Source: a virus
Virus record (IMG/VR): IMGVR_UViG_3300037010_001749
Location: 21,896 to 85,895 of that record
Strand: one strand, 5' to 3'
DNA: 64,000 nucleotides
A program made the position numbers and the translations under genes. The number at the start of each line of letters is the position of its first letter. Positions within the stretch are counted from its first letter, which is position 1. This document shows positions 19,837 through 58,437 of this stretch, piece after piece. A model generated the notes under the pieces. It saw only the letters and a list, made by a program, of their open reading frames with translations, made no database searches and was not told the DNA's origin.

Positions 19837-20586
19837 CTACTCCTTAGCCCTAGAGAAAAGCCTGGGCGCCGCAAACTTGCGCGCCTTCCGCCCGTGGACT
19901 GTGATGACCACTGAGGCCCTATTGCTTCGGCCGTCGGCCGTGCCGTTGCATGCACCGCACGCGATGCACGTGAGGCGCTTGCCCGCCTCTTCGCTGGCCG
20001 GGCAGACCATCTCACGCACTCCGGCCCCAGCCTTGGGCGTGCGCACACGGAAGTAACGCAGCCCCAGAGTCTGGGCCAGCGTAGCTTCAGCATCGCTGTC
20101 GACGCTGGCCATGCAGAGTTCGGTGACACCTTGCCACTGCTCCAGGGGCAAGTCTCTGTTCTGCCACTGGTGCGTGTAGCCTGTGTGGCCTGCGGCCTTG
20201 GACACCAGGGCCTGCCAGACCCTGGCAGGCACAGCCATCGGGTCCCCATAGGAGCCCAGGCGGACCATTCGGCCCTCACCCAGCACCGAGGGGTCTTCGT
20301 GCAGAGGGTAGCCGCCGCGGCGCCACTTCTTGTAGACCACGGCAGGCCCACGGTCTACCAGCACATAGCAGGCACCGCCGCGGCTGGGGCGCCAGGCACA
20401 CTCTCCGCACACAGAGACATCTGCGCCCGAGGCTACAGCCTCAGCCGGGTGCATGTCCTGGCGCAGGATGTATGTCTGCACCATGTTGCCTGTCTTCACG
20501 TTGGCGCTCGCCTTCAGGGCAATGGCCATGATGGGCGCCGCGTCAAGCAGCGACGCCCCTTGCCAGATGACGTGGCCCGTCGTCAT
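19837..20586 (-). CDS. Conserved Cys-rich phage protein (GP88-like, possible Fe-S protein)
   Basis: N.KTG.MVQT.I, CGEC...CYV, RLGSYGDP, TGYTHQW, SVDS, CPA...C..C..C. Confidence 0.7.
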   Translation of the reverse strand: MTTGHVIWQGASLLDAAPIMAIALKASANVKTGNMVQTYILRQDMHPAEAVASGADVSVCGECAWRPSRGGACYVLVDRGPAVVYKKWRRGGYPLHEDPSVLGEGRMVRLGSYGDPMAVPARVWQALVSKAAGHTGYTHQWQNRDLPLEQWQGVTELCMASVDSDAEATLAQTLGLRYFRVRTPKAGAGVREMVCPASEEAGKRLTCIACGACNGTADGRSNRASVVITVHGRKARKFAAPRLFSRAKE

Positions 20587-21167
20587 GTGGGTTCGTCGGC
20601 GAGCCAGCTTCGCGGCACGCAGTAGCATGCAACCATACCGCCTATAGTCGGCATCTCTTCGCCTTCCAAGTAGAAACCCCCATCGAGGTCAGCCGCCCCG
20701 GGCACGTAGGGACTGCAGGCCCTGTTGGCATGACCGGCTGGCCCGGCGAACACCCACAGCAGCGGCGCACCACCCAACCAGTCAATCCGATAGTTGACGC
20801 CGTCATAGACGCCTTCGATGATCGGCTCGCTGATATCGATGTTGTCTCGCCGGCGCTCGACGTGTTCCTCGACAAAGGCATCCTTGTCCGGCTCCTGATT
20901 CTTGAACCCGAACCAGTTTTGCTGGAAGATCTCGGAGTCGAAGCCCACCTCTCGGTCAGCGCCGCTCTCAGCGGCGCTAATGCAGCACTCCTCCGTCAAG
21001 GCTTCGTATTCGCCCTCGGCCTCGGCCACCAGTTCAGTGACGGCCGCCTCGTAGCTGACGTCCTTGGCGTGCTGGCCATAGAACAGGTCATCCAGGCACC
21101 AGGGCTGTAACGAGTTGAAAGAGATCACGCCGTAGGCGAGACCAGTGGTGGGGTTGTAGTCGGGCAT
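20583..21167 (-). CDS. Acidic hypothetical protein
   Basis: TAAGGAG RBS; CSPYVPGAADLD motif. Confidence 0.75.
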   Translation of the reverse strand: MPDYNPTTGLAYGVISFNSLQPWCLDDLFYGQHAKDVSYEAAVTELVAEAEGEYEALTEECCISAAESGADREVGFDSEIFQQNWFGFKNQEPDKDAFVEEHVERRRDNIDISEPIIEGVYDGVNYRIDWLGGAPLLWVFAGPAGHANRACSPYVPGAADLDGGFYLEGEEMPTIGGMVACYCVPRSWLADEPT

Positions 21168-21314
21168 CGTTGCTCCTTAGGGCTAGGTACGCTCACACCT
21201 CAAGCCACCACGCGGCCCGAGGCTGAGAAGAAATATGTCAAGCAAAACTTGTCATCTTCGAGCCGCGCAACCGCCGGATGTGCAGCCACTCGCCGTCTGT
21301 GAGACTGCGTAGCT

Positions 21315-21521
21315 TCACAGCGTCACCCGCTCAGCCAGCGCCTGGCTGATCTCACCATTCCGGGACAAGCTGTCGACGTAGTCCGAGAAGGCGCAGCGTG
21401 TGTCGGTCACGTGCATGGTGCCGTTGCCGCTGTAGTCGGGGGTCTTTTTGCGCTCCGCGTCGGGGTGCGCTTCCCAAAAGGCAGCGCGAACCTCACGCTG
21501 CGCGGTGTAGGTAGGCTTCAC
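21315..21521 (-). CDS. Conserved small phage protein
   Basis: VR.AFW...DTRCAF.DYVDSL.R.G.IS..LA..VTL. Confidence 0.7.
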   Translation of the reverse strand: MKPTYTAQREVRAAFWEAHPDAERKKTPDYSGNGTMHVTDTRCAFSDYVDSLSRNGEISQALAERVTL

Positions 21522-21603
21522 AGCGGGTAGCCCACCCGCTTCACGACCTTGCAGTTCACCACCTCGACCGTGTCTCCGACACGGATGACACCCTCCCGCC
21601 GGC

Positions 21604-21822
21604 TCATACCAGGTTCAAGGTAGTGACCCACCAACTGTTGCAAGCCAGGTAGGCGTCGTAATCCTGGTAGAGATCCTTGGTGCCTTCGTAGTGGCTCACG
21701 CGGAGCCGGTACAGCTGCCGCTCCGCGTGGAGGTTTGCGTTACCGTGGTCCACCAGCACAGCCGCGACGCACTCGCTGTTGTTCTTGATGACGATGACCT
21801 GTGTAGCTGCGTTGGGGCTCAT
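21604..21822 (-). CDS. Hypothetical protein
   Basis: ATGA coupling. Confidence 0.55.
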   Translation of the reverse strand: MSPNAATQVIVIKNNSECVAAVLVDHGNANLHAERQLYRLRVSHYEGTKDLYQDYDAYLACNSWWVTTLNLV

Positions 21823-22115
21823 GCTTCGAACCCCGCCTGGAAGCCGAAGTAGGCGATGTCCACGTGGCCACGGCTGCAGAAGACCATGTCGAAGTCGCAG
21901 GGATTGACGAGGCCTTCGATGTACCCCTGCGCCTTCCGGTCTTCGCGCCAGGCTTTGGCCACTTCAGCCCGCGCCTTCTTCAGTGCAGCCAAGGCCTCGG
22001 TGTAGTTGTCGCCAGCCGGCACAGACACCAGTGCCACATGGAAGGGCCAGGCGTGCACCCAGTCGGGCGGGAACCTGTAGTGGAGCACCACCGTCCAGGG
22101 CTTGCTGGCCCTCAC
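21819..22115 (-). CDS. Hypothetical protein
   Basis: GTGA coupling. Confidence 0.55.
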   Translation of the reverse strand: MRASKPWTVVLHYRFPPDWVHAWPFHVALVSVPAGDNYTEALAALKKARAEVAKAWREDRKAQGYIEGLVNPCDFDMVFCSRGHVDIAYFGFQAGFEA

Positions 22116-22305
22116 GACAGCGTCTCCGACTTAGCCTCTTCACCCAGGGCGCGCAACGTGGTGGCCAGCAAGGTACTGGCACGGATCGGGCTCATGCCCG
22201 AGGCGATGAGCAGGCGCTTCGCGTCCTGCATGGCCTGCAGCCCCTGTAGATTGGTCTGGCGCACGGCACTGCTGAAGGTGCGGATGATTTCGTGTTCGAT
22301 ATCGT

Positions 22306-22542
22306 TCAAACGTCTTCCTTAGGGTTGGGGAAAGGCTTGCGCTCCAAGGGGAACGAGGCTAGTCGGATCTGGCCCATGCCCTTGCGAATGTAAATATGCT
22401 GGCGGTGATCAAAACGAAAGGCCAGCATGTCACTGGCCAGGTTGGCCTTCAGGATCGCCAAGTCTTCGGTGTGATAGAACGCCCATCGGGCGGCCTTGAT
22501 GGCGCGGCCAAGGTCGCGCCAGGTCTAGCGCAGCGGGGTCAC
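22306..22542 (-). pseudogene. Small ORF with an in-frame TAG at codon 6
   Basis: Coupled GTG start, TAG at 22525-22527, frame open afterwards to TGA at 22306. Confidence 0.45.
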
Positions 22543-22700
22543 CCCACCACCGCCATGTCGCGCTCGCAAGTATTGAACTCCAGCCCGTGCTCCACGGCTA
22601 GGTCTTCGGCCTTCTGCAGAGCATCCTGCTCCGACTCGGCTTCGATTTCCACCATCGTGGCGTACGTCTCCGTGACGGCCACTTTGTACATTTTGGTCAT
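22539..22700 (-). CDS. Small acidic protein, 53 aa
   Basis: MTKMYKVAVTETYATMVEIEAESEQDALQKA. Confidence 0.6.
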   Translation of the reverse strand: MTKMYKVAVTETYATMVEIEAESEQDALQKAEDLAVEHGLEFNTCERDMAVVG

Positions 22701-22715
22701 GCTATTGTCTCTAGA

Positions 22716-22733
22716 TTAGCTCGAACGTTATGC
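22716..22733 (+). other. Truncated attC (L'/R' half), left edge of the array
   Basis: TTAGCTCGAAC GTTATGC; 22716-22737 is identical to 25019-25040. Confidence 0.8.
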
Positions 22734-22849
22734 GCCTGTCTCGGAATGGGTGAGCTTCACCGCATGCCAAGTGCCTAAAACCTCGTCTGCCGCCGTCAGC
22801 CAGTCTTGCGGCAGCGGGTGCGCTTCAGCAGGGCCAGCGCAGCGGCACC

Positions 22850-23563
22850 CTACTCCACCGGGTTCACTGCGCTTCGCGCAATCTCAATGAGCAAGTCTCG
22901 GAACTCAGGCGGTGTACCGTTGCGGATCGCAGTCTTATCCTTGCCGCCCACCATCGCCATCATTCCAATGCGCCGCGCTTTCGCGTATCCGGGCAACTCC
23001 ACGGCGCGCGGGTGTAGCCGCTGCGGTGTCTTGCCCCAGCGCAGTTCGGGCAGCAGGCGCTTTTGCACGCCAGCCACAAGCAGCCATGTTCCTTTGCCGG
23101 CAAGGTGCCCGTAGTGGCCTTGGTACACGCAGCACGTCCACAAGCCTGGCGCGGCCTCAACCCACCCACCTTTGCGCGGCGGCTTCTTCAGCCTGAAGTA
23201 CGCCCACGCATGCGAGTCCATCGGGTGTTCAAGCACGCCACCGTTCAGACGCAGCGCCGCCAGTGCGGTAGCAAAACACCCATCGTCGGCGCCCAGCTTG
23301 TACTGGTGCGGCTTGCGCGTGCTGCCGTGCCAGAACCTGCCCCAGCGCTGGCAGGGCAGGTGCGCCACTACCGGGTGCGGGCCTGCATAGGTACGGGCAT
23401 CGCGGGCTTGGTCCCACGGGTCAACGCCCGGCACGCCTACATAGCAGCCCTTCGGCTCAACGTAGAGGGCCGCCACCGTACGGAAGCTCTCCACCTGGCG
23501 CATAACCCCTCGCACAAGCTGAGAGCCAACGGCGGGTGTAATGGGTGCTTCAGGTTTGGTCAT
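22850..23563 (-). CDS. Cassette ORF: divergent C5 DNA methyltransferase-like protein
   Basis: VAALYV..., VVAHLPCQRWG (PC motif), VLEHP; start codon inside attC. Confidence 0.55.
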   Translation of the reverse strand: MTKPEAPITPAVGSQLVRGVMRQVESFRTVAALYVEPKGCYVGVPGVDPWDQARDARTYAGPHPVVAHLPCQRWGRFWHGSTRKPHQYKLGADDGCFATALAALRLNGGVLEHPMDSHAWAYFRLKKPPRKGGWVEAAPGLWTCCVYQGHYGHLAGKGTWLLVAGVQKRLLPELRWGKTPQRLHPRAVELPGYAKARRIGMMAMVGGKDKTAIRNGTPPEFRDLLIEIARSAVNPVE

Positions 23564-23596
23564 GCCGTTGGTTCCAGCTTTGCTTGGTCATTAGGC
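23500..23596 (+). other. attC type A (97 bp), R' core mutated GTT>ATT
   Basis: GCATAAC CCCTC GCACAAGC...GCTTTGC TTGGTC ATTAGGC. Confidence 0.85.
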
Positions 23597-23784
23597 GGCT
23601 TGCGCAACTCGAACATCACAACCCGCCGCAGACCCAGGCGCCGCAGGTAGTCGGCGCTCGGGTTCACCTTCTCGCCATCACGCAGCCGCGACAGGTAGCC
23701 GCAGTCAATCTCGGTCACGCGGGCCACGGCGCGCAGGCTGCCGTGCTGCGAGACGAGTTGGTCAATGCGCTCTGCCAGCGTCAT
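23560..23784 (-). CDS. Cassette ORF: XRE-like HTH protein
   Basis: GSLRAVARVTEIDCGYLSRLRDGEKVNPS. Confidence 0.8.
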   Translation of the reverse strand: MTLAERIDQLVSQHGSLRAVARVTEIDCGYLSRLRDGEKVNPSADYLRRLGLRRVVMFELRKPPNDQAKLEPTA

Positions 23785-24125
23785 GACTGATACCCGGCCA
23801 GCGCGTTGGCTAGCGCGGCATCCGCTTCGCCGAGAAAATCGTCCGGCACAATGAACGACACCCACGCGGGAGCGTTCGGCGTTGCTGGATGCCTCGCGTA
23901 TTGCAAGAGCGTCGCAAGCAGCACGGCACAGCGCTTCGGCGCAGCCCGCACCAGCACTGCAAACCGCTCCAGGTGCTCCTGCGTCACGCCGTGGCAGCCT
24001 TCGCTGTACACGCACGAACCGCTGCCGTGGTTCAGCACGTTCACCATTCCAGCAGCCTCCACCAGCGGGCCTAACCCCTCTGTCGAGCCGAGTGCCAACG
24101 GCTGGCTGGTTTTGGTAGTGTTCAT
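23781..24125 (-). CDS. Cassette ORF: hypothetical protein
   Basis: AAGGAG RBS and ATG lie in the attC loop. Confidence 0.75.
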   Translation of the reverse strand: MNTTKTSQPLALGSTEGLGPLVEAAGMVNVLNHGSGSCVYSEGCHGVTQEHLERFAVLVRAAPKRCAVLLATLLQYARHPATPNAPAWVSFIVPDDFLGEADAALANALAGYQS

Positions 24126-24173
24126 CGTTGCTTCTCCTTGGCCGTTGTCACCGGCTCAACTCCAACGTTAGGC
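24069..24173 (+). other. attC type B (105 bp)
   Basis: GCCTAAC CCCTC TGTCGAGC...GCTCAAC TCCAAC GTTAGGC. Confidence 0.9.
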
Positions 24174-24174
24174 C

Positions 24175-24468
24175 TCACACCAGCCACGATGCAGCGGCAG
24201 CTTGGCGAGAGGCTGTGTCGCGTGCCTTGATGCCCGCCAACAAGTCGGCGGCCAGCAGCGGGTATTCGGCGGCGCACGATTCTACGTATGCGCGCAGGGC
24301 CGCCGCAGCGTGCTTATCATGCGTCAGGTCCAGCACAAAGTAAACGCAGCCGCAGTGCTTGCCGCCCGGCGCGCTACTGCCGTCCGTTCGCGTCACGTTG
24401 AATCTGCTGTACAGCCCACGATTCCTGTCACAGGGCATTGGCTCGCCGCACAGTTCACACTTGCTCAT
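24175..24468 (-). CDS. Cassette ORF: conserved phage protein (alternative GTG start at 24549 within attC)
   Basis: GLY..F.V.RTDG....GGKH..C.YFVLDL.HD.HA..AL.AY. Confidence 0.8.
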   Translation of the reverse strand: MSKCELCGEPMPCDRNRGLYSRFNVTRTDGSSAPGGKHCGCVYFVLDLTHDKHAAAALRAYVESCAAEYPLLAADLLAGIKARDTASRQAAAASWLV

Positions 24469-24491
24469 GCTTTTCCTCGCTCCGGCACCAG

Positions 24492-24592
24492 GCCGAACCA
24501 TTCGCACAAGCTGCGCCCCAACGGCGGGGCACAGCAACTCGGTAGGCACCGCCTGCGCGGCCGTTGGTGCCAGCTTTCCTCAATCGTTAGCC
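24492..24592 (+). other. attC (101 bp)
   Basis: GCCGAAC CATTC GCACAAGC...GCTTTCC TCAATC GTTAGCC. Confidence 0.88.
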
Positions 24593-24605
24593 AGCGCCAA
24601 AACCA

Positions 24606-24926
24606 TCACGCCGGCTCGTAGGTGGCTGCGAAGATGTCCGGTTTGCATGGATAGTGCTCGCCGGCCACGCCGCGAATGATCCAGTCGCCTGGGCTAGCGA
24701 CATGCTGGCCTTCAAGCGTCGGAACCATGATGTTGTTGTTGTGCCATTGCGCCAGCTCGCGCCCGATGGCGTGCTGTCCCTCGTTGATCCAGAGAATCAG
24801 CGCATAGCTACTTCCGTCGTTGCGGAACTGGCGTGCTTCAATCACGATAGGTTTCTTCCTGAAGCGCGTTGTCTGTTCGGTTGTTGCCGCGTCCAGCTCA
24901 TGGCCGGCGCTGAGAAATGTTTGCAT
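24606..24926 (-). CDS. Cassette ORF: PGDYG-like conserved phage protein
   Basis: FRKKP.VIEA.QF...TLEG...ASPGDWIIRGV.GE.YPCKPDIF..TYE. Confidence 0.85.
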   Translation of the reverse strand: MQTFLSAGHELDAATTEQTTRFRKKPIVIEARQFRNDGSSYALILWINEGQHAIGRELAQWHNNNIMVPTLEGQHVASPGDWIIRGVAGEHYPCKPDIFAATYEPA

Positions 24927-24966
24927 GACGGTTCCTTCTGTGTTGTGCCAGCATGGGTCGGGCGCT

Positions 24967-25036
24967 GGCTAACCCCTCGCTCAAGCGGATTTGCCACGGA
25001 GTACCATGTCAAACGCGCTTAGCTCGAACGTTATGC
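24967..25036 (+). other. attC type C (70 bp)
   Basis: GGCTAAC CCCTC GCTCAAGC...GCTTAGC TCGAAC GTTATGC; canonical extra base in L''. Confidence 0.93.
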
Positions 25037-25635
25037 GCCTTGAGGCACGCCACCATTTGCCGCGCCGACTGTCTCGCGTCCATCAACGGGTGGTGCGCCG
25101 GTAGTTCGTCCGGCAAGCGCTCGGTCAGTTCCAGCGCGTTGCCGCCCAGCGCCAGGATCACGCTTGCCAAGTCGTGCAGCGGGTACGGGCCTTGCCACTC
25201 GCGCTCGGCGTGGTTCAGCTTCACGCACGCGCTCAGAAAGTTGGCTTCCACCGGCCAAGCGCAGTCAGCCACCAGCACCGCGCCCTGGTCGGCCCAGCTT
25301 CGCCACTCATGCCAAAAGTGGTTCCGCAGGTGCTGCTTCGTTGGGCTTGTCACCGGCAGCGCCGGCACATGCTCGCCCACCCACAGCCGGCTTTCGGCGG
25401 TGCCGGTGCAGTCGGCGGGGTCGCAAGCAATGCAGCCTTCGTCCAGCCGCTCGCCTTCTCGGTTCACCACTACCCAGGCCACTGCAAAGCCCTCGCCATG
25501 CAGGCCAATGCTTTCCACGTCAAACACCATAAATTTGTCCATCACCATCCTCTCGTTTCTCGCTGCAGGCGCCGTAACACCTCGCACAAGCTGAGAGCCA
25601 ACGGCGGGTGTAGTGGGTGCTTCAGGTTTGGTCAT
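25009..25635 (-). CDS. Cassette ORF: DEDD 3'-5' exonuclease-like protein
   Basis: VFDVESIG...HHPLMDARQS; starts and stops inside attC sites. Confidence 0.75.
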   Translation of the reverse strand: MTKPEAPTTPAVGSQLVRGVTAPAARNERMVMDKFMVFDVESIGLHGEGFAVAWVVVNREGERLDEGCIACDPADCTGTAESRLWVGEHVPALPVTSPTKQHLRNHFWHEWRSWADQGAVLVADCAWPVEANFLSACVKLNHAEREWQGPYPLHDLASVILALGGNALELTERLPDELPAHHPLMDARQSARQMVACLKAHNVRAKRV

Positions 25636-25668
25636 GCCGTTGGCTCCAGCTTTGCTCGATCGTTAGGC
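25572..25668 (+). other. attC type A (97 bp)
   Basis: Near-identical to 23500-23596; ends GTTAGGC. Confidence 0.9.
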
Positions 25669-25968
25669 GCTTACCGCAGGGCCAGCAGGCAGCGGCATCC
25701 AGTGCGTCACACGTCTCACCAGCGCTGGCGGCAGCGGCCAGTTGTGCTGGTCCACCTCCCACCGAGGGCCCTCACCAGTAAGCCGGAACTTCGTGATGTG
25801 CGCGTGTCCAGGAGTCAGCCGGTCAAAGACCCCGCGGCGCCACACCAGCACGGTGGCGTTGTGACTGGGCAAGCGCTCGCCAGTCGGCACCCACGCGCAT
25901 AACCCCTCACTGCAACCGAGCCCCAACGGCTGGCCCGTGCTGCTGTCATCGGTAGTTTCAGTGGTCAT
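25663..25968 (-). CDS. Cassette ORF: DUF551-like protein
   Basis: W.P..ERLP...VLV...VTHWMPLP..P. Confidence 0.85.
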   Translation of the reverse strand: MTTETTDDSSTGQPLGLGCSEGLCAWVPTGERLPSHNATVLVWRRGVFDRLTPGHAHITKFRLTGEGPRWEVDQHNWPLPPALVRRVTHWMPLPAGPAVSA

Positions 25969-26016
25969 CGTGTTTCCTCTCGTGCCGTTGTGTCCGGCTC
26001 ACCTCGAACGTTAGGG
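25897..26016 (+). other. attC (120 bp)
   Basis: GCATAAC CCCTC ACTGCAAC...GCTCACC TCGAAC GTTAGGG. Confidence 0.85.
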
Positions 26017-26184
26017 CGCAGGGCCACGCTTGCGGTTCTCGCGGCGCTGCAACTTCGCTTCCAGCGCCCTGACCTCTGGCACGTACTCCGGGCGCACATG
26101 CACTGTCACCGCAGTGCGCCCGGATTCCTTGTGGCGCTGCCGCTCGTCGGCCTTGCGCTCTGCTGCTGTTTTCGCTGGGCTCAT
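26011..26184 (-). CDS. Cassette ORF: 57-aa basic protein, possible DNA-binding or antitoxin-like
   Basis: MSPAKTAAERKADERQRHKESGRTAVTVHVRPE...; ATGA-coupled; stop is the TAA in the R' site. Confidence 0.7.
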   Translation of the reverse strand: MSPAKTAAERKADERQRHKESGRTAVTVHVRPEYVPEVRALEAKLQRRENRKRGPAP

Positions 26185-26423
26185 GCCAGCGTGGCGCCGG
26201 CCGCTAGGTAGTGCGCCAGCTCGCTGTCCGGGATCGAAACGAACCTGTAGCCCATGCGGTGCGCAGTGGAGCCATCAGGAATGGTCACAACGCTGAACGG
26301 CTCACCCTTCATTTCGGCAATCTGCTTTGCGTAGGCACGCACTGGCTCGGCCTGCGAGTGGATCGGTTCCACTTGCAGGGCTGCGCGCTGGCGCTTCAGT
26401 GTCTTGGTCATCTCAGCTTGCAT
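26181..26423 (-). CDS. Cassette ORF: hypothetical protein
   Basis: AAGGAG RBS downstream of the cassette promoter. Confidence 0.7.
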   Translation of the reverse strand: MQAEMTKTLKRQRAALQVEPIHSQAEPVRAYAKQIAEMKGEPFSVVTIPDGSTAHRMGYRFVSIPDSELAHYLAAGATLA

Positions 26424-26462
26424 CTCTTGCTCCTTCTGCTGCACTGTAGCCGCAGTGGCTAC

Positions 26463-26491
26463 AGTATCGCTCATCGTGACACGTCACGCAA
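26463..26491 (-). promoter_or_regulatory. Sigma70-like promoter with overlapping palindromic operator inside a cassette
   Basis: TTGCGT-17bp-GATACT; CGTGAC-GT-GTCACG dyad overlaps the -35 and spacer. Confidence 0.7.
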
Positions 26492-26506
26492 GCATTCTCG
26501 CGTGCG

Positions 26507-26612
26507 CCCTAACCCCTCGTTGCAACCGAGCCCCAACAGGCTGCGGTCAGTTGTGGCCTTTCGGCCTGCTTATGCACGGCCTGTTGGGGCCGGCTGAACT
26601 CGAACGTTAGGC
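26507..26612 (+). other. attC type D (106 bp)
   Basis: CCCTAAC CCCTC GTTGCAAC...GCTGAAC TCGAAC GTTAGGC. Confidence 0.92.
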
Positions 26613-26911
26613 CCTTCAATGCCGCGAGCAATCTTGCTGGCGGCATTCCGCGCGTTCACCGTCACGCCGTCAGCGTGCGTCTCGCCCCAGCGGCGGGCAA
26701 TGGCGGCGCAGCGTGCGCGCTCGGCGGCCACGGCCTTGTCAATGCGCCACTGCACATGCGCCGGGCTTGACCAATGGCCGCACTCGGCGGGGTCATCGTT
26801 TGTGCCGCAGATTGTCATGGTCAGGTATTGGCCCTCGCGCTGCGGTGGCAGCGGGCCTAACCCCTCTGTCGAGCCGAGTGCCAACGGCTGGCTGGTTTTG
26901 GTAGTGTTCAT
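26570..26911 (-). CDS. Cassette ORF: hypothetical phage protein
   Basis: AVAAERARCAAIA motif; starts and stops in attC sites. Confidence 0.75.
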   Translation of the reverse strand: MNTTKTSQPLALGSTEGLGPLPPQREGQYLTMTICGTNDDPAECGHWSSPAHVQWRIDKAVAAERARCAAIARRWGETHADGVTVNARNAASKIARGIEGPNVRVQPAPTGRA

Positions 26912-26959
26912 CGTTGCTTCTCCTTGGCCGTTGTCACCGGCTCACATCGATCGTTCGGT
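26855..26959 (+). other. attC type B (105 bp)
   Basis: Near-identical to 24069-24173; ends GTTCGGT. Confidence 0.88.
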
Positions 26960-26966
26960 GTGTTGC

Positions 26967-27197
26967 TCACCGCGAGCAACCCAAATGCTTGCCGTCGCTC
27001 GTCATGCGTGGCGTGAGTCCGCCGGCCGAAGTGCGCAGATACTGGCACCCGGTCAGCGCGTCGGTGCTGGGCACCAAGCCGCTGCGGGCGCCCCACGCGC
27101 CGGGGTCCGTGTCATCGCGCCCAATGGGCAGCAGGCCCACAACCAGCATCATGGCCACGCCAATCAGCAGGTACTTCCCGCACCAGCGGGCGAACAT
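26967..27197 (-). CDS. Cassette ORF: membrane-anchored DUF6440-like protein
   Basis: TM helix then D.TD...RSGL...TD.LTGCQYL....GGLTPR...DG. Confidence 0.75.
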   Translation of the reverse strand: MFARWCGKYLLIGVAMMLVVGLLPIGRDDTDPGAWGARSGLVPSTDALTGCQYLRTSAGGLTPRMTSDGKHLGCSR

Positions 27198-27218
27198 TTT
27201 TGCTTCTATCAACGACAC

Positions 27219-27324
27219 GCCTAACCCCTCGTTGCAACCGAGCCCCAACAGGCTGCGGTCAGTTGTGGCCTTTCGGCCTGCTTATGCACGGCCTGTTGGG
27301 GCCGGCTGAACTCGAACGTTCGGC
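27219..27324 (+). other. attC type D (106 bp)
   Basis: Near-identical to 26507-26612; ends GTTCGGC. Confidence 0.9.
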
Positions 27325-27325
27325 A

Positions 27326-27628
27326 TCAATACCGGCTTTCGAGTTTCGCCAGCGCCGCTTTGATGATCGACTGCATCACCTCATCGGTCATGTGCTTGGC
27401 CATTGCGTCCTTGATGCCGGTTTCCAGCAGCGGCGCGTAGGTGGCCAGCACTTCCTTTTCGATCAGTTCGCGCACGTACCGCTTGACGACATCATCGAAT
27501 GGGTTGTTGTAGCTCTTGGACAGTTCAGCGATGCTGCGCTGAACGGCACCCTTCACTACTTCACCGATCTGGCTGTCCATCACAGTCTTGGCGATGAACT
27601 CGTTAATTTGCTGCGGGGTCAGTTCCAT
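27326..27628 (-). CDS. Cassette ORF: helical hypothetical protein
   Basis: AAGGA RBS; fills its cassette. Confidence 0.8.
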   Translation of the reverse strand: MELTPQQINEFIAKTVMDSQIGEVVKGAVQRSIAELSKSYNNPFDDVVKRYVRELIEKEVLATYAPLLETGIKDAMAKHMTDEVMQSIIKAALAKLESRY

Positions 27629-27651
27629 GTCGTTTCCTTCTGTGCGTTGAT

Positions 27652-27756
27652 GCCGAACTGGCAGTTCAAGCAGAGCCCCAACGGCGGCCTGCTTTTGTGG
27701 TTAAAAACTCCGGCGTCCGTGGCGCCGTTGGTACCTGCTTAACCTAAACGTCAGCC
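27652..27756 (+). other. attC (105 bp), R' core GTT>GTC
   Basis: GCCGAAC TGGCA GTTCAAGC...GCTTAAC CTAAAC GTCAGCC. Confidence 0.88.
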
Positions 27757-27792
27757 GGCACCAATACCCTCGGTGCCGGCATACTCGTGTTG

Positions 27793-28071
27793 TCAGAACG
27801 TGGTGGGCTGCGCAATGCCGCGAATCAACTTCATGAAGCCCACTTGCAGGTCAGTGGCTCCCATGCTGACCCACCGCTGGTCAAGGTCCAGTGACAGCGG
27901 CCTGCCATCGGCCACAGGCGTATCGGTGCGCGTGATGTCAGGGTGTTGACGCAGTTTCGCCACAAAAGCGCCGCACTGCTCGGCCAGCGCCTTGCCCTCG
28001 TTCATCAGCGCTACTTCAGCACCGCTCAGTTGACGGTAGCCCGTCACTTTCGGTTGAATCATCGTTTCCAT
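27793..28071 (-). CDS. acb2: Cassette ORF: Acb2-family anti-CBASS cyclic oligonucleotide sponge
   Basis: KVTGYRQLS..E..LMN..K and RW..MG.TDLQ.G.M..IR.IAQP..F match the Acb2 termini; 92 aa. Confidence 0.88.
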   Translation of the reverse strand: METMIQPKVTGYRQLSGAEVALMNEGKALAEQCGAFVAKLRQHPDITRTDTPVADGRPLSLDLDQRWVSMGATDLQVGFMKLIRGIAQPTTF

Positions 28072-28111
28072 GTGGTTCCTTAAGTTGCATGCCAGCGTTG
28101 GTGCGGGTGCT

Positions 28112-28181
28112 GGCTAACCCATCGCTCAAGCGGATTTGCCACGGAGTACCAAGTCAAACGCGCTTAGCTTGAACGTTCGGT
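28112..28181 (+). other. attC type C (70 bp)
   Basis: Near-identical to 24967-25036; ends GTTCGGT. Confidence 0.92.
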
Positions 28182-28415
28182 CCGTTCATTCGCCACCGCC
28201 ACTGCATCAAGCACACCCGGCTTCATCGCCAGTTCCAGCAGGCTGCCCATCATGCGCTTGCCGTGCGCCCGGTTGGCATCCAGTAGATCGATGTACTTCT
28301 TGCGATACTGGTGAAGTTCTTCGTTTTCCTCGCGCAGCCGCTCTAGTTCGTGATGCATGTCCAGCACGTCGGCGGCCATCTGCACAGCCAGGGGCACTTT
28401 GTAGTCTCGCCTCAT
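28164..28415 (-). CDS. Cassette ORF: coiled-coil hypothetical protein
   Basis: GGAG RBS; stop inside attC. Confidence 0.75.
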   Translation of the reverse strand: MRRDYKVPLAVQMAADVLDMHHELERLREENEELHQYRKKYIDLLDANRAHGKRMMGSLLELAMKPGVLDAVAVANERTERSS

Positions 28416-28434
28416 CTCGTTTCTCCACCAACGG

Positions 28435-28470
28435 GCCTAACCCGTCGCTCAAGTTGAGAGCCAACGGCGC
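28435..28470 (+). other. Truncated attC (R''/L'' half), right edge of the array
   Basis: GCCTAAC CCGTC GCTCAAGT TGAGAGCCAACGGC; no right arm. Confidence 0.8.
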
Positions 28471-28482
28471 CAGCAGGCACCG

Positions 28483-29394
28483 TCATGCCGCCTCCTTAGC
28501 CTTGAGGAGGCCCAGTTGGTGGGCGATACCTTCGATCTCATCGAAGGCGATGTCATGGCAGCCGACCACGATATTGCCGTTGGTGCAGATCTTCGTCAAC
28601 TCGTAGTGACCCAAGGTCATGCCTACCTCGTAGTCCTTCTTGCCCTTCATGACGCGCTGGATGACCGGCCAGAGCTTCTTCGCGTCTTCGACGGGGATGC
28701 TGGCGTGGCGGCTGGTCTGGATCATGAACGACGGCAAGTCCAGCCGCAGCATCGTCGGAAGATCCCGGCTGAGCGCTGGGCTCCCACTCCGCCGCCAGGC
28801 TGTAATGGCGACGGCCTGCAGCCTCCGAAAGGCCTTGGCCTGCGACACTGCGCGGCGTTTCTCCGAGACGGCTTTCTTGGCCAGGTGCTCGCGGTGCTGC
28901 TCCGGGCTCCACGTCGCCGCATCGATCGGCTTGATACGGGCCTTGTGCTTCAGCAGCTTCGCAAACTGGTTGAAGTCGGCGGTGATCTGCGCCGCTTGGC
29001 TGAGGTAGACAGGCCGATTGCCGTCGGCCTTGGCGCGTAGGGCCTTGGCCAGCAGGTTGTCGACGAGGGCCTGAGTGCCTTCCGTGTCCGGCGCGTCGTG
29101 CTCCGGGTTCAGCACGGACACCTGCTTCAGGTGCCTGGTGGCGTGTCGTGCCTCCCAGACGTGCCTGTTTGTCGTGGAAGAATTCTTCTCCAGGTTGATG
29201 GCCACCCAGCCGCCGGGTAAGTGGCGACCGATGCAGTAGTGCTTGCCGTAGCTGTAGAAGTAGTCGCCTTCGACGAAGGCCTGGATGACGCGGCCGCCGT
29301 TCATGCCGGGACGCTCGGGCATCCGAGCTTCAGCCTGCCGTTTGTGGGCCCAGATGTGGGCCAGTTCTTCCGAGTGGTTGTACACCGTCTTCAT
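28483..29394 (-). CDS. Conserved phage early protein, 303 aa
   Basis: AH.WA...YSYG.HY.I...S.TT..H; GCH.I...EI. Confidence 0.8.
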   Translation of the reverse strand: MKTVYNHSEELAHIWAHKRQAEARMPERPGMNGGRVIQAFVEGDYFYSYGKHYCIGRHLPGGWVAINLEKNSSTTNRHVWEARHATRHLKQVSVLNPEHDAPDTEGTQALVDNLLAKALRAKADGNRPVYLSQAAQITADFNQFAKLLKHKARIKPIDAATWSPEQHREHLAKKAVSEKRRAVSQAKAFRRLQAVAITAWRRSGSPALSRDLPTMLRLDLPSFMIQTSRHASIPVEDAKKLWPVIQRVMKGKKDYEVGMTLGHYELTKICTNGNIVVGCHDIAFDEIEGIAHQLGLLKAKEAA

Positions 29395-29645
29395 GCGATG
29401 AGTCCTCGTTGTCTTGCGTACTCGACCAGATGGGGTTGCCACTCAGCTTCGCTGTTGGCTGACCGACTATTGAAGCCGGCGAGGCGTGGAGCGGTCAGGT
29501 AACCCGACTCGATCTCCTCGTTGATGGCCTCGACATCAAGGCTGAAAATCTCGCGCCCCCTCGGGGTGCTGAGGCTGGCGTATCCGTCGCCTCGTTCAAA
29601 CCACACGCTGGCCACGTACTCGTGGTCAGCGATCTTCTTTGCCAT
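29391..29645 (-). CDS. Hypothetical protein
   Basis: TAAGGAG RBS. Confidence 0.7.
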   Translation of the reverse strand: MAKKIADHEYVASVWFERGDGYASLSTPRGREIFSLDVEAINEEIESGYLTAPRLAGFNSRSANSEAEWQPHLVEYARQRGLIA

Positions 29646-29709
29646 GGCGGCTCCTTAGGGCTAGAGAACCCGGCCGATGCGGTCCTGGCCTTTGATCTTG
29701 ATGGCCATG

Positions 29710-29985
29710 TCAGTACAGGTTCTCGCTGTACAGCGTCCCATCGTTGGCATCGTCGCCACCGCAGCGGCGGACGATCTGGCCTGCCGCTTCGGCAACCTTC
29801 CAGGCCACCGTCCGAGACATGAACACACCGTGCTGGTCGATGAAGCCCTGCTCCTCTTTCGGGTCATGCGGAGTGAAGGCCTGCACGAGTCGCCACTGGT
29901 CGCGCATCACCAGGTCCCAGTGCCGGGCGCCGACCAGCATGTGGTAGTCGCCGATCTTGGTGGCCGCGCAAACGACGCGTCTCAT
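29710..29985 (-). CDS. Conserved small phage protein
   Basis: G.RH.D...EQGFIDQ.G.F.SR..A..VA..AGQ...LYSENLY. Confidence 0.8.
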   Translation of the reverse strand: MRRVVCAATKIGDYHMLVGARHWDLVMRDQWRLVQAFTPHDPKEEQGFIDQHGVFMSRTVAWKVAEAAGQIVRRCGGDDANDGTLYSENLY

Positions 29986-32900
29986 CGCACACCTGACAGG
30001 TTCTCGTACTCTTCGACGCCCATGATGACGCACTCGATGACAGCCAGGCCGTCTCGAAGCCACATCGGGCACTCGCGCTTGGCCTGCTGCCCGTCTTCCT
30101 CCGTCAGGTGGAACTGGTTCGCACCCTTCTCGAAGCCCAGCGGCTTGCCGGCGCGATCCTTCTGCATGGCCACCCACACTTGAGTCGGCGCCGTCACTTC
30201 AGCACACCTGCAATCTTGGCGTACTTCTCGAGCAGTTCCGGGAACGCATCTTCGATGCGCCGGATGCTGTCGTCGTCAGCCACGAGGTAGGCCTCGGCCA
30301 ACTTGGCGGCGAACCCTCCGCCGTAGGCTCGCATCACCCGGATGATGTCCAGGCGGTCGTTCAGTTCGTAGTGCATGACGCCTCCTTAGCGCTGAGGAGC
30401 CAAGGTATAGAAGCGGACCGCCGCATCGCGGCGCCAGGCATCCAGCAGTTCACCGTCAGCGCCGGGATACTTCTGGACCTTGTCGCCCACCCAGGCCCGC
30501 TGCAGGTTCTCCTTCAGACGTTCCGCCTGAACTGGGTCAGCAAAGCGCGACACCGTGAGCAACTCGTTGGGCGGGTCGCACACGACGGTGTACAGCGTCG
30601 GGTGGTAGAGCGGCGGGATACCCGCCTTCTGCTGATGCCACGTGCTCAAGCTCGATCCTCCTTAGCGTTGAGGGCGTTGGCGATAACCTGGGCCTGCCCC
30701 ATGCCGGAGCACTCGCAGACGACCTGGTTTCCGTACCAGTCGTCGCCTGCCTCTCGTGCGTACGGCGGCGGGTCGATGTTCGTGTCCACCACTGAGGCAT
30801 CAAAGCAGCAGGCATGGCCGAGGATGCTGCGCTCCACAGCCTTGTACCGCGGCGTCATGTCACCTCCCGCAAGGTGGCCTTGTCGCGCAAGTCAGCACGC
30901 CACTGCTCGGCCCAGCTGGTCAAGTCTGGGATGTGCTCACGGACAAGCTCGCACACCATGTCCGCGAAGTAGCCTGCGGCGCAGCGCTGCCAGAACTCAT
31001 CGGCGTTGCCGTAGCAACACGCGCCCAGGCTTTCCTCGCCCAGCATCTCGCCACGGTGCCATAGGCTCACGTCGGCGTTGAACCAGGCGAAGTCCTCGAT
31101 CTCGCGGTACTGCTGCGGCGTCCACCCGCACTCCTTCACGAAATGCCGGTGCATGCTGACCGACTCTTCCGGAGGAGCATCGAAGCAAATCATGTAGTCG
31201 GTGCCAGGGATCACAAGCACTGGTTTCATTTCTGCCTTTCAGCGAGGCCAGAGGCTGCGGCGGCTTCCGCATGCTCCAGCGAACCCAGGTAGCTGCGGCC
31301 TTCAATGGCGCGCAGTTCGGTCAGGCGGTCGCCCAACTCCTTAGCCCTGAGGAATTCGTCCCCGGCCAGCCGGCTGCCCAGCGCCTTCAGGATCAGCAGT
31401 GTGTCGAACTTGTTGAGTTCGAAGATCCAGTTGGGCTTGAGGTGCAGTTGCGGCTTGTCGATTCGTTCACCGTTCATCGGCTATCCCTCATCTTGTCCAC
31501 GTTGAAGCGCTTGATCCAGCGCTCGATGATCGTGTCGCACACGCCCAGGCCATCCAGCAGCCCATCGAGGTCTTCCGCACGCAGGCATAGGCTGACGTGC
31601 CCGTAACTCTCGTGGCTTTCGATACCCCGCTCCGGATCACCCTTGAACGCCTCGTCGAGCATGTCAATCAGCTGAGTGACGTAGTAGCCACCTGGCTGCT
31701 GATTGCGCTCTTCGGCGTCACGCAGCACAAACTCCAGCCGGTGCCCATGCCAGGTCTTGACGTTGAGCCAGCCGTCGACGTGGGTCAGCTCAGCATAGAT
31801 GTCGTCGTCGTCGCTCACAGCTTCTCCGCCACCAAGCCAGCGAGCATCGTGCGCATGGCCTGGGTGTAGCCCATCAGGTAGAGATCGCCGTTCTCCTTAG
31901 CGTTGAGTATGATGTTGTCCAGGCCCTGGAACATCGATTCGATGCGGTAGTCATCGACTAGCCGGTTGCGCCGTCGGCGGTCAGGCCGCTCGATCCCTTG
32001 ATTGTCGGTGTAGTAGTCCATGTCAGGTCTCCACGATTCGTGCGTCCCAGCCGTAGGCGATACTCTCGCCTCCCTTGGACAGCATGTTGAACATCTGCTT
32101 GATGTCATCGAGCACGTCATTTGGGTCACGCAGCATCTCGCCTTCCTCGGACGGGAGAAGCGTGACCATGATGTGCACGGGCTTCGCCCGCGGCTCGCCA
32201 TCATCGGGGCCATCGGCCCCGGCACGCTCGAAAGGCTCGTGGCTGTCGCAGCCGTCGTCGTACTCTTCAGGGAGCATCAGCTTTCCTCGGGTGCAGCGTA
32301 GAGCTGCTCAACGACAAGGTCCTGGGGCCGGGCCAGCGGCGGTTGGGTGTAACGCCAATGTTGCGACTCATCGGAGTTCTTCCAGAACCAGCGCGTGCCT
32401 GCGTAATACGTCAAGGGGCTCGCCTGAAAGGCGGCCTGCAGCATTGCTCCATAACCATCTTCTTCAACCGCCTCCATGGCGTCGAGCATCGCTCGTGTCG
32501 CCACGGTGGGCACCAGCTTCCAGTGGGTCACAGGTCCACCTCGCGCCCATCGGGCATGATCAGCGTGGTCTCGGTGCTGATACCGAGCACCGCGTCGAGG
32601 ATCTTGAGGCTGTAGCTGGGCAGGGCCGGCGCCACGAGATTTTCGAGCGTCTCGTGCAGGGTTTCCACGTGGTCGTCCTGGTTGGGGTCGAAGTCGTCGG
32701 GCACTTCGACCTCGAACGTCTCGCGCTCCCAGACGGCCTGGTCGCGTTGGATTCGGATCTTCATTCAATGCCTCCAAACAAAGCCGTCTTCGGTGAGGAA
32801 GCCGCCGCCGATGCCACGTTCGGTGTAGGCGCCTTGCAGGGCGTACTCGAGGACGTCAAGCTGGGTGAGTCTCACCGCCCGGCTCCTTCGCGTCCTGGTA

Positions 32901-46157: not shown

Positions 46158-46613
46158 ATGGCCCTCAAAGACCACAGCCTCAGCGGCGTTCCACGTGAAA
46201 CCGCCCTCGTCAATCTCGACATCCTGGACGAGCTCGAGCTCCTCAGCCTTAGGGCCCAGATCGACAGCCGACTGAACCTAGGCACCATCCGGGAAATCGA
46301 CCTCGGCCACGAGTTGACGCTACAGTTGCGCACCGTAAAGGCCTTGCAGCAGGCCGCCAGCGACGACCTCGACACGCCTTTCGGCCAGAAGGCCCAGACG
46401 GCCATGGCTGTGCAGCGCTTGCTGCAGGACCTGGTCAAGATGCAGACCGAAATCCACAACTCCGAGTTCGCCAAGGCGCTCGAAGGTATGGTCATCAAGG
46501 CCTTCGCCCTTTGCGAGGCTGCGGCCGACCCAACACTTGCGGGCGTGCTCAAGCAGGTCAAGGACCTATTCTTCGAGCAGTACGAGTCGCTGCAGGCCTC
46601 AGCAAGTGAGTGA
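46158..46613 (+). CDS. Putative terminase small subunit
   Basis: Helical 151-aa ORF directly upstream of the large subunit. Confidence 0.55.
   Translation: MALKDHSLSGVPRETALVNLDILDELELLSLRAQIDSRLNLGTIREIDLGHELTLQLRTVKALQQAASDDLDTPFGQKAQTAMAVQRLLQDLVKMQTEIHNSEFAKALEGMVIKAFALCEAAADPTLAGVLKQVKDLFFEQYESLQASASE
46188..46201. promoter_or_regulatory. parS-like site
   Basis: GTTCCACGTGAAAC versus consensus tGTTtCACGTGAAACa. Confidence 0.6.
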
Positions 46614-58435: not shown

Positions 58436-58437
58436 CC

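What the first reader, a model, noticed from the sequence alone, without database searches (positions are those of the whole stretch)
27751..28175. Anti-CBASS Acb2 homologue packaged as a mobile cassette
Seen: a 92-aa ORF with the Acb2 signature termini is the only gene in one cassette, with its own TAAGGA RBS and a downstream hairpin (27754-27780). Known: Acb2 sequesters cyclic oligonucleotide signals of CBASS, and bacterial integrons carry anti-phage defence cassettes. Inference: the array may be the mirror image, a swappable anti-defence library, which makes the unknown cassette ORFs (23781, 24175, 26570, 27326, 28164) candidate new counter-defence proteins.
Basis: partly seen in the sequence, partly recalled or inferred. 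Interest (0 to 1): 0.85.

Follow-up and report, generated by a model that had tools for sequence, protein, structure and literature searches.

The report
Phage Acb2 gene in integron cassette
A phage gene for a known inhibitor of bacterial CBASS immunity (Acb2) sits inside an integron-type gene cassette, in a 12-site cassette array whose genes all read backwards relative to normal integrons, which suggests that phages shuffle counter-defence genes with the same machinery bacteria use to shuffle defence genes.

Summary
ORF 27793-28071 (-) is a full-length Acb2 homologue: Pfam PF24729 scores 47 bits, PaMx33 Acb2 (PDB 8h2j) matches at E 3.6e-9 (1.7e-25 with a profile), and all four published ligand-contact residues are conserved. 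It is the only gene between two attC sites.

A covariance model built from the attC sites of a complete betaproteobacterial integron finds 12 sites at 23497-28514. All are on the + strand, and there are none elsewhere in the 85.9-kb phage contig. The model also finds the textbook aadA1 attC of plasmid R100, on that gene's own strand. Every cassette ORF in the phage is antisense to its attC.

The same reversed layout holds in other viral contigs (116 of 116 scorable intervals). Bacterial control arrays are mostly sense (37 sense, 10 antisense).

A module of acb2, its 5' UTR and a short attC recurs in 7 other viral arrays with different neighbours. Two other cassettes recur elsewhere, with homology breaking at the attC R' site.

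The contig has no integrase, so this is a CALIN; host IntI is the likely recombinase. The "anti-defence library" idea is only partly supported: recognisable cassettes are Acb2, DNA methyltransferases and Lar, but most are unknown.

Earlier scan notes concern this same genome only.

The parts
27793..28071 (-). acb2 homologue, 92 aa
   Evidence: Pfam PF24729 E 2.7e-12, 47.1 bits against a cut-off of 27, covering the whole profile 1-58. PDB 8h2j 'p26' E 3.6e-9; profile search E 1.7e-25, and T4 Vs.4 (7uq2) at 0.0047. Y12 and K27 are invariant; R66 and T73 are conserved in at least 90% of 35 homologues.
28077..28082 (-). Shine-Dalgarno-like TAAGGA, 5 nt upstream of the ATG
   Evidence: Read from the sequence. 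The 5' UTR is conserved with acb2 in other arrays.
27754..27780 (-). hairpin downstream of the acb2 stop codon
   Evidence: RNA fold -25 kcal/mol, z -4.4. It is not followed by a U-run, so it is not a canonical intrinsic terminator.
28109..28185 (+). attC belonging to the acb2 cassette (short type). R'' GGCTAAC 28112-28118; R' GTTCGGT 28175-28181.
   Evidence: Model R1 25.8 bits, E 1.5e-4, + strand. 92% identical to the attC at 24954-25032. Its left arm and the acb2 5' UTR are conserved in 7 other viral loci.
27649..27759 (+). attC of the neighbouring cassette; its R' (27750-27756, GTCAGCC) forms the left boundary of the acb2 cassette
   Evidence: Model R1 41.4 bits, E 1.1e-8, + strand. The core reads GTC instead of GTT. 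A terminator-like hairpin plus T-run lies on the - strand at 27727-27711, inside its loop.
27751..28175 (+). acb2 cassette as defined on the attC top strand; the ORF is antisense
   Evidence: Bounds taken from the R' cores. One codon-supported ORF lies inside.
23497..28514 (+). array of 12 attC sites (a CALIN) holding 11 inter-site units, with every ORF on the - strand
   Evidence: Model R1 finds 12 hits, all on the + strand, E 7e-14 to 3.8e-4, and no hit below E 0.1 elsewhere in the contig. The best ORF is on the - strand in 11 of 11 intervals. 10 of 19 stem pairs show compensatory changes.
22692..22735 (+). half-site (right arm and R' GTTATGC only) at the low-coordinate end of the array
   Evidence: 82% identical to the right half of the attC at 25627-25670 (family D4). 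Not found by model R1.

Best explanation
Shown by sequence
- The 92-aa protein is an Acb2-family protein.
- Its gene is an integron-type cassette, made of one reversed ORF plus its own attC, inside a 12-site attC array of a phage genome that lacks an integron integrase.

Inferred from homology
- Acb2 is a known sponge for cyclic oligonucleotides. This protein should form the Acb2 hexamer and sequester the cyclic di- and trinucleotide signals made by host CBASS cyclases. That would keep CBASS effectors silent during infection.

Inferred from context
- The attC sites are of the type found in chromosomal integrons of Burkholderiales such as Rubrivivax and its relatives. The integron integrase of the host, or of a co-resident phage, can therefore cut out and insert these units by attC x attC recombination. 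This would let related phages exchange accessory genes, counter-defence genes among them.
- Expression does not use an integron promoter. All cassette ORFs lie antisense to the attC top strand and are co-oriented with the flanking phage genes. They are most likely read as part of a long phage transcript, each with its own ribosome-binding site.
For: Acb2 identity
- Pfam above cut-off.
- End-to-end match to solved PaMx33 Acb2.
- 1824 of 1828 candidate homologues score E <= 0.001, and 117 of the 120 listed carry PF24729.
- PaMx33 residues Y11 and K26 are needed for cGAMP binding, and R67 and T74 for cA3 binding (passages of PMC10312549). They align with Y12, K27, R66 and T73. Y12 and K27 are invariant and R66 and T73 nearly invariant in 35 homologues.

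attC identity
- The arm pattern hits 6 times against 0 expected.
- The same pattern occurs in arrays of betaproteobacterial genomes.
- 4 of 4 such genomes tested have IntI above the TIGR02249 cut-off. One has intI beside the array.
- Model R1, built from 15 attC sites of that complete integron, finds 12 sites in the window and none elsewhere in the contig.
- R1 also finds the aadA1 attC of plasmid R100, at 39.7 bits on the gene's strand against 11.5 on the other.

Mobility
- The c25009 cassette is 86% identical in L004, and homology begins at the R' GTT of the upstream attC.
- The c26967 cassette is 81% identical in L029.
- The acb2 + UTR + attC module occurs in 7 further loci, and none of the window's neighbouring cassettes is conserved there.

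Phage origin
- DNA polymerase, SNF2 helicase, terminase and protease genes flank the array.
- GC content is 0.62-0.63, the same as the backbone.
- One Logan contig of run X1 spans 27291-31000, running from the array into the backbone.
Against: - No integron integrase or any PF00589 recombinase is present in the contig. The contig is estimated to be 71% complete.
- 3 of the 12 R' cores are degenerate: ATT at 23590, GTC at 27750 and CTT at 28495. The GTC core bounds the acb2 cassette itself, so excision of acb2 alone may be impaired.
- No fold, oligomer, ligand binding or anti-CBASS activity was tested.
- A CD-NTase (SMODS) family match was found in only 1 of 4 candidate host-lineage genomes.
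- Acb2-family genes in sampled Burkholderiales genomes had no attC nearby, in 0 of 8 loci.
- Reversed ORFs are atypical for integron cassettes.
Confidence: 0.72

Rival explanations
1. Fossil array. The attC sites are relics of past integron activity. The acb2 unit is now a fixed phage gene and no longer moves.
For: - No IntI in the contig.
- 3 of 12 R' cores are degenerate, including GTC at the acb2 boundary.
- The array ends in half-sites.
Against: - 9 of 12 sites keep a canonical GTT, and stems keep pairing through compensatory changes in 10 of 19 pairs.
- Cassette-level mosaicism between phages at 81-86% identity points to fairly recent exchange.
- IntI is present in candidate hosts (4 of 4) and in 2 of 36 related viral loci.
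Confidence: 0.2
2. The repeats serve the phage mainly as RNA or translation elements, such as transcript punctuation or ribosome-binding modules. Their likeness to attC would be secondary.
For: - Some loops carry a ribosome-binding site and an ATG.
- A terminator-like hairpin lies in the loop at 27727-27711.
- The coding strand equals the attC bottom strand.
Against: - The sites score with a model built from true integron attC sites, and they keep the strand asymmetry of attC.
- Homology between phages breaks at the R' crossover point.
- Terminator-like sites are not enriched: 10 found against 7.3 expected.
Confidence: 0.08
3. The protein is a sponge for signals other than CBASS signals (Thoeris or type III CRISPR messengers), so the 'anti-CBASS' label is too narrow or wrong.
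For: - The Pfam family also covers Tad1.
- Binding spectra differ among Acb2 homologues (PMC10312549).
Against: - The end-to-end match is to Acb2 proteins (PaMx33 p26, T4 Vs.4), and no Tad1 structure appeared.
- All four Acb2 contact residues are conserved.
Confidence: 0.12
4. The array is bacterial DNA joined to a phage contig by mis-assembly.
For: Logan contigs break at the attC repeats.
Against: - Phage genes lie on both sides and on the same strand.
- Cassette ORFs match phage families, and none matches the 81 bacterial loci.
- GC content is the same as the backbone.
- Contigs run from the backbone into the array at both ends (records 1 and 8 of X1).
- Four runs from four studies hold 63-98% of the words; two of these runs may be the source.
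Confidence: 0.03

Closest known systems
Acb2 of Pseudomonas phage PaMx33 (PDB 8h2j, 8ixz) and T4 Vs.4 (7uq2)
   Same: Same size (92 against 93 aa). Collinear over the whole length. Y/K dinucleotide-pocket and R/T trinucleotide-pocket residues are conserved. Same Pfam family.
   Different: The HMMER E-value of 3.6e-9 reflects distant sequence similarity to PaMx33. The central loop differs. No biochemical data exist. The gene lies in an attC-bounded cassette, which I found described in no paper.
[quoted passage not shown] 2023, PMC9892861; section 3.4 read)
   Same: attC sites in a phage genome without IntI. Cargo includes DNA methyltransferases, which those authors read as counter-defence.
   Different: The array is large (12 sites). 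Every ORF is antisense to its attC; that paper does not mention this ('opposite', 'antisense' and 'reverse' each occur 0 times). An Acb2 cassette is present. The attC type is shared with Burkholderiales chromosomal integrons.
Sedentary chromosomal and mobile integrons as stores of anti-phage defence cassettes (bioRxiv 10.1101/2024.07.02.601686 and 10.1101/2024.07.02.601719; passages read)
   Same: Same recombination-site family, same array architecture, and the same logic of swappable small immune-related genes.
   Different: The carrier is a phage. The cargo is counter-defence and phage-type genes. ORFs are reversed. There is no Pc/attI/intI platform in this contig.
Anti-defence islands of phages and anti-defence genes in mobile elements (Tesson et al. 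2024, PMC11724313; passages read)
   Same: Anti-defence genes are clustered in an accessory region. That paper notes anti-defence genes in integrons of bacterial genomes.
   Different: Here each gene is bounded by attC sites, which gives a defined exchange mechanism.

Membership tests
Acb2 (Pfam PF24729 Acb2_Tad1_hairpin) | Match to the family HMM above the gathering score | tested here: met
   47.1 bits against 27; profile positions 1-58 of 58
Acb2 (Pfam PF24729 Acb2_Tad1_hairpin) | Full-length collinearity with a structurally solved Acb2 | tested here: met
   8h2j_A at E 3.6e-9, query 7-92 against chain 6-93. Profile search E 1.7e-25; T4 Vs.4 at 0.0047.
Acb2 (Pfam PF24729 Acb2_Tad1_hairpin) | Cyclic-dinucleotide pocket residues (PaMx33 Y11, K26) | tested here: met
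   Y12 and K27 are invariant in 35 of 35 aligned homologues. Their role is taken from PMC10312549.
Acb2 (Pfam PF24729 Acb2_Tad1_hairpin) | Cyclic-trinucleotide pocket residues (PaMx33 R67, T74) | tested here: met
   R66 and T73 are present and conserved in at least 90% of the alignment
Acb2 (Pfam PF24729 Acb2_Tad1_hairpin) | Interlocked hexamer fold; nucleotide binding; CBASS inhibition | not testable with these tools
No bench test was possible.
Integron attC site / gene cassette | Inverse core sites R'' (RYYYAAC) and R' (GTTRRRY) flanking an imperfect palindrome | tested here: met
   The acb2 cassette's own attC has GGCTAAC ... GTTCGGT. 9 of 12 sites have a GTT core. The left-boundary site has GTC.
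Integron attC site / gene cassette | Recognised by a structure-and-sequence model of bona fide attC sites | tested here: met
   Model R1 was built from 15 sites beside an intI gene. It gives 12 hits, all on the + strand. The control aadA1 attC of R100 is found at 39.7 bits.
Integron attC site / gene cassette | Strand asymmetry (extra bases on the R''-L'' arm) that defines top and bottom strands | tested here: met
   The left arm has 4 unpaired columns and the right arm has 2. The - strand scores at most 12.3 bits.
Integron attC site / gene cassette | ORF co-oriented with the attC top strand and upstream of it (typical, not strictly defining) | tested here: not met
   All 11 intervals have the ORF on the opposite strand. 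Bacterial controls gave 37 sense and 10 antisense.
Integron attC site / gene cassette | Unit-wise exchange with breakpoints at the R' crossover | tested here: met
   The L004 and L029 homologous cassettes, and the acb2 module in 7 loci
Integron attC site / gene cassette | Recombination by an integron integrase | not testable with these tools
   Needs an attC x attI or attC x attC assay
Complete integron | intI gene and attI next to the array | tested here: not met
   No PF00589 match in the 85,895-base contig. The element is therefore a CALIN. The contig is 71% complete.
Phage anti-defence island | Several known anti-defence genes clustered together | tested here: inconclusive
   In this window only Acb2 is recognisable. 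Across viral arrays, Acb2, methyltransferases and Lar recur, but most ORFs are unknown.

The most novel reading that the evidence does not exclude
Phages of integron-bearing Burkholderiales keep their own mirror-image pool of integron cassettes. The ORFs are antisense to attC, so they are expressed from phage transcripts. They would stay silent if captured behind a bacterial Pc promoter, just as bacterial cassettes would stay silent in a phage array. These cassettes are exchanged by host or phage-encoded IntI and serve largely as a swappable counter-defence library, of which Acb2 is one recurrent member. The many unknown cassette ORFs would then be a rich source of new anti-defence proteins. 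The reuse of one attC type with unrelated genes would bear on how cassettes are born.
Probability: 0.35. Interest if true: 0.9.

Novelty: new variant of a known kind. Interest (0 to 1): 0.75.

Why it matters
Integrons were recently shown to stockpile anti-phage defence cassettes in bacteria. This locus shows the counterpart on the phage side.

- A known immune-signal sponge is packaged as a cassette, using the same recombination sites as the likely host's chromosomal integron.
- This gives a concrete mechanism for rapid exchange of counter-defence genes between phages.
- The sample holds 139 cassette families, most of them unannotated, which marks out a defined set of small proteins to screen for new anti-defence functions.
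- The uniformly reversed gene orientation is unexplained. It may bear on how cassettes are expressed, kept apart from bacterial cassette pools, or created.

Tried and rejected
- **Rfam and tRNA.** An Rfam scan at gathering thresholds and a tRNA scan of the window found nothing.
- **Phage database.** Megablast of 20000-32000 against phage records gave no match. The terminase has only about 30% identical relatives, so the phage is not close to any named one.
- **Structure.** No fold or oligomer evidence was obtained, and fold search was therefore not used.
- **Gene contexts.** The contexts of the closest Acb2 homologues (80% identity) and of the 5 contigs that carry the identical protein could not be read.
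- **Expression.** No RNA holder was listed.
- **Read laying.** All four runs are Logan contigs that break at the attC repeats. The joints between attC sites have sides of only 18-31 letters, so they may be repeat artefacts. I do not count them as excision events.
- **Promoters.** No sigma-70-like promoter in 22000-31000 (0 found, 1.3 expected). Terminator-like sites are not enriched.
- **GC skew.** It gave no usable replication signal.
- **Host genomes.** Acb2 was not found in 4 of 4 candidate host-lineage genomes with this query. In 301 sampled genomes of the order, 9 have a PF24729 match. One of them, G209, is flagged unpublished, and its locus was not analysed. 0 of the 8 other loci have an attC.
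- **Neighbour ORF.** An Atlas look-up of ORF 27326 gave only viral hypothetical clusters.
- **Enrichment.** I did not compute a matched baseline for anti-defence enrichment. In the Pfam census, 5 of the 6 Acb2 hits come from loci chosen through Acb2.
- **Sequences dropped.** 10 of 160 non-redundant ORFs, the shortest ones, were left out to fit the 150-sequence limit.
- **Intervals dropped.** In some searches, intervals shorter than 120 or longer than 3000 bases were skipped. Intervals whose best ORF scored under 5 are counted as '?' and yielded no ORF.
- **Supplements.** Paper supplements were not opened. The supplementary tables of PMC9892861 and PMC11724313 may list cassette contents that bear on novelty.

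Full report
**Setting.** The window is bases 21896-85895 of an 85,895-base IMG/VR virus contig, classed as linear and estimated 71% complete. It is a phage. A family A DNA polymerase with 5'-3' exonuclease lies at 914-4345 (-). An SNF2 helicase lies at 10952-12385 (-), a gpA-type large terminase at 46537-48297 (+) and an S49 protease at 58291-59253 (+). No named phage is close: megablast of 20000-32000 found nothing, and the terminase is about 30% identical to Vibrio phage proteins.

**The ORF.** ORF 27793-28071 (-) encodes 92 residues.
- It matches Pfam PF24729 (Acb2/Tad1 hairpin domain) at E 2.7e-12 and 47.1 bits against a cut-off of 27, over the whole profile. It also matches phrog_717.
- Against all PDB chain sequences the only hits are 'p26' of entries 8h2j and 8ixz, at E 3.6e-9, aligned from residue 7 to the C-terminus. 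That these entries are PaMx33 Acb2 rests on my own knowledge. It fits the residue numbers below.
- A profile of 35 homologues raises this to 1.7e-25 and also finds T4 Vs.4 (7uq2) at 0.0047.
- The family is large. 1824 of 1828 candidates score E <= 0.001, the best at 70-80% identity, and 117 of the 120 listed carry PF24729.

**Ligand-contact residues.** Passages of PMC10312549 state that Y11 and K26 of PaMx33 Acb2 are needed for cyclic-dinucleotide binding. R67 and T74 are needed for cA3 binding. One hexamer binds three dinucleotides and two trinucleotides. Counting along the alignment, these residues correspond to Y12, K27, R66 and T73. In the 35-sequence alignment Y12 and K27 are invariant, and R66 and T73 are conserved in at least 90%. 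By sequence this is an Acb2 that should bind both ligand classes.

All hold.
- TAAGGA lies 5 nt upstream of the ATG.
- The hairpin at 27754-27780 folds at -25 kcal/mol, z -4.4.

**The repeats are attC sites.** Intergenic repeats of 60-128 nt, with GCCTAAC-like and GTTAGGC-like ends, recur between 23.5 and 28.5 kb.
- A 28-position pattern from their left arm hits 6 times, all on the + strand, against 0 expected.
- The same pattern occurs in at least 120 stretches of bacterial genomes. These are mostly Burkholderiales (Rubrivivax, Aquabacterium, Hydrogenophaga and others), often in arrays spaced 500-700 bases apart.
- All 4 of 4 such genomes tested encode an integron integrase above the TIGR02249 cut-off. 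In one of them intI lies on the opposite strand, upstream of an array of at least 17 sites.
- From 15 of those sites I built covariance model R1. R1 finds 12 sites in the window, at 23497-28514, all on the + strand, with E from 7e-14 to 3.8e-4. Nothing else in the whole contig scores below E 0.1.
- As an outside control, R1 finds the attC of the aadA1 cassette in plasmid R100. It scores 39.7 bits on the strand of aadA1, directly after its stop codon, against 11.5 bits on the other strand.

The acb2 ORF lies alone between the sites at 27649-27759 and 28109-28185.

There is one flaw. The left R' reads GTC rather than GTT. Two other sites in the array are also degenerate (ATT, CTT). No integrase is present in the contig, so the element is a cluster of attC sites without an integrase (a CALIN).

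**Reversed orientation.**
- In the bacterial arrays, ORFs lie on the strand of the attC top strand and end in its R'' core.
- In the window, the best codon-scored ORF is on the opposite strand in 11 of 11 intervals. Several of these ORFs have phage-family matches.
- R1 found 186 hits in the 36 viral loci retrieved with the pattern. Between consecutive sites the best ORF is antisense in 116 intervals and sense in 0, with 13 undecided and 1 skipped.
- The same script on 11 bacterial loci gave 37 sense, 10 antisense and 37 undecided. Fisher's p is about 8e-28, though the intervals are not independent.
- The viral loci come from real and varied phages. Tail, endolysin, terminase, RecE-like and helicase genes lie beside the arrays.
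- Two viral loci, L014 and L017, also carry an IntI that is 52% identical to the bacterial one. It is placed as in a normal integron relative to the attC sites, but it is co-oriented with the cassette ORFs and downstream of them. L166 has an IntI-like fragment.

**Mobility.**
- The cassette holding ORF 25009-25635 recurs in L004 at 86% identity. The upstream attC sites differ, and high identity begins at the GTT of the upstream R'. It runs through the ORF into the cassette's own attC, which shows compensatory changes, and ends after that R'.
- The cassette with ORF 26967-27248 recurs in L029 at 81% identity with the same kind of bounds.
- None of the window's cassette proteins matched the 81 bacterial loci.

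**Mobility of acb2.** 53 viral loci encode relatives of 37-72% identity.
- R1 finds attC sites in 9 of the 53. All 44 hits are antisense to acb2.
- In 7 loci an attC lies within about 110 nt upstream of the start codon. In 6 loci acb2 has sites on both sides.
- In those 7 loci nucleotide similarity to the window runs from the stop codon through the 5' UTR into the left arm of the attC. In loci without attC sites it stops at the gene.
- The neighbours differ. Of the window's other cassette proteins, only two have any homologue in these 53 loci.
- The conserved unit is therefore a reversed ORF plus its UTR plus an attC. That is a cassette as defined on the attC top strand.

**The library idea.** From all the viral arrays I extracted 187 cassette ORFs: 186 antisense, 160 non-redundant at 90% identity, and 139 families. 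Of these, 150 were scanned.
- Pfam found Acb2 (6, of which 5 come from Acb2-selected loci), N6_N4 methyltransferase (5), DUF551 (2), Lar (2), ASCH (2), UPF0020 methyltransferase domain (2), D12 methyltransferase (1), DUF5131 (1) and some HTH domains.
- PHROGs added methyltransferase families, Lar-like proteins and one queuine tRNA-ribosyltransferase.
- In PADLOC, the 25 best families are 24 methyltransferase models plus mad2, each matching the same 4-5 members.

The recognisable cargo leans towards counter-defence, but most ORFs are unknown and I computed no baseline. Qi et al. 2023 (PMC9892861; section 3.4 read) had already reported CALINs in phages, functional attC sites, and methyltransferase cargo read as counter-defence. 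Tesson et al. 2024 (passages) note anti-defence genes in integrons.

I found no paper that links Acb2 with a phage cassette, or that describes reversed phage cassettes (searches; term look-up). The library searched is not all of the literature, and supplements were closed.

**Mechanism.**
- Shown: family membership, the cassette anatomy, the attC family and its strand, and cassette-wise mosaicism.
- Inferred from homology: a hexameric sponge that sequesters CBASS signals.
- Inferred from context: exchange by host or phage IntI, and expression by read-through of a minus-strand phage transcript. No promoter-like site lies in 22-31 kb.
- Unexplained: why the ORFs are reversed. One possibility is that the orientation keeps phage and bacterial cassette pools silent in each other's arrays. 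Another is that it places the recombining strand on the non-template strand. Neither was tested.

**Weak points.**
- There is no integrase here.
- The R' core at the acb2 boundary is degenerate.
- A CD-NTase family match was seen in only 1 of 4 candidate host genomes.
- Acb2-family genes in 8 sampled Burkholderiales loci lack attC sites.
- Public-run data were contigs that break at the repeats, so they show presence in four runs but no excision events.

**Verdict.** This is a known protein family and a known kind of element in a new and consistent configuration.

Noticed in passing
L017:1489-2529 (-) and L014:3278-4288 (+): Two viral contigs carry an integron integrase (52% identical to a bacterial IntI) next to attC arrays. 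It is co-oriented with the reversed cassette ORFs and downstream of them. In L014 it sits beside a second tyrosine integrase and a host Lon gene; in L017 it sits beside a large serine recombinase. This looks like complete integrons at prophage ends.
   Followed up: partly
window 23500-26960 (attC loops at about 23563, 24125, 25635, 25968, 26911): Start codons and ribosome-binding sites lie inside several attC loops. Unrelated ORFs therefore share N-terminal leaders (MTKPEAP..., MNTTKTSQPLALGSTEGLGP) encoded by the attC arm. PHROG alignments suggest that the true starts may lie downstream.
   Followed up: partly
window 21386 and 30011: Contigs in three runs (X1, X3, X4) join 21386 to 30011 with two extra letters between. 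That form would skip the whole array and its flanks. I saw no repeat at the two ends. It may be a variant genome or an artefact.
   Followed up: partly
window 24954-25032 and 28099-28177: The acb2 cassette and the cassette of ORF 24606-24926 (phrog_419 family) share the same short attC type at 92% identity, together with a similar leader.
   Followed up: no
window 23560-23790 (-) and 26011-26474 (-): Two inter-attC units hold two ORFs each. In the first, a short protein that I read by eye as helix-turn-helix-like follows ORF 23781-24125; this was not tested. In the second, ORFs 26181-26474 and 26011-26184 overlap by 4 bases. An earlier scan note likened the second unit to an Acr-Aca pair.
   Followed up: no
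window 25009-25635 (-): This cassette ORF has a motif (FDVES...) that I read by eye as DnaQ-like exonuclease; this comes from recall and was not tested. It had no Pfam match at E 0.1. An 89% identical protein sits in a cassette of another viral contig (L004).
   Followed up: partly
window 22692-22735 and 28432-28514: The array ends in incomplete sites. At the low end only a right arm with R' is present. At the high end there is a site whose R' (CTTAGCC) lies inside the 3' end of the 319-aa phage gene 28483-29442.
   Followed up: partly
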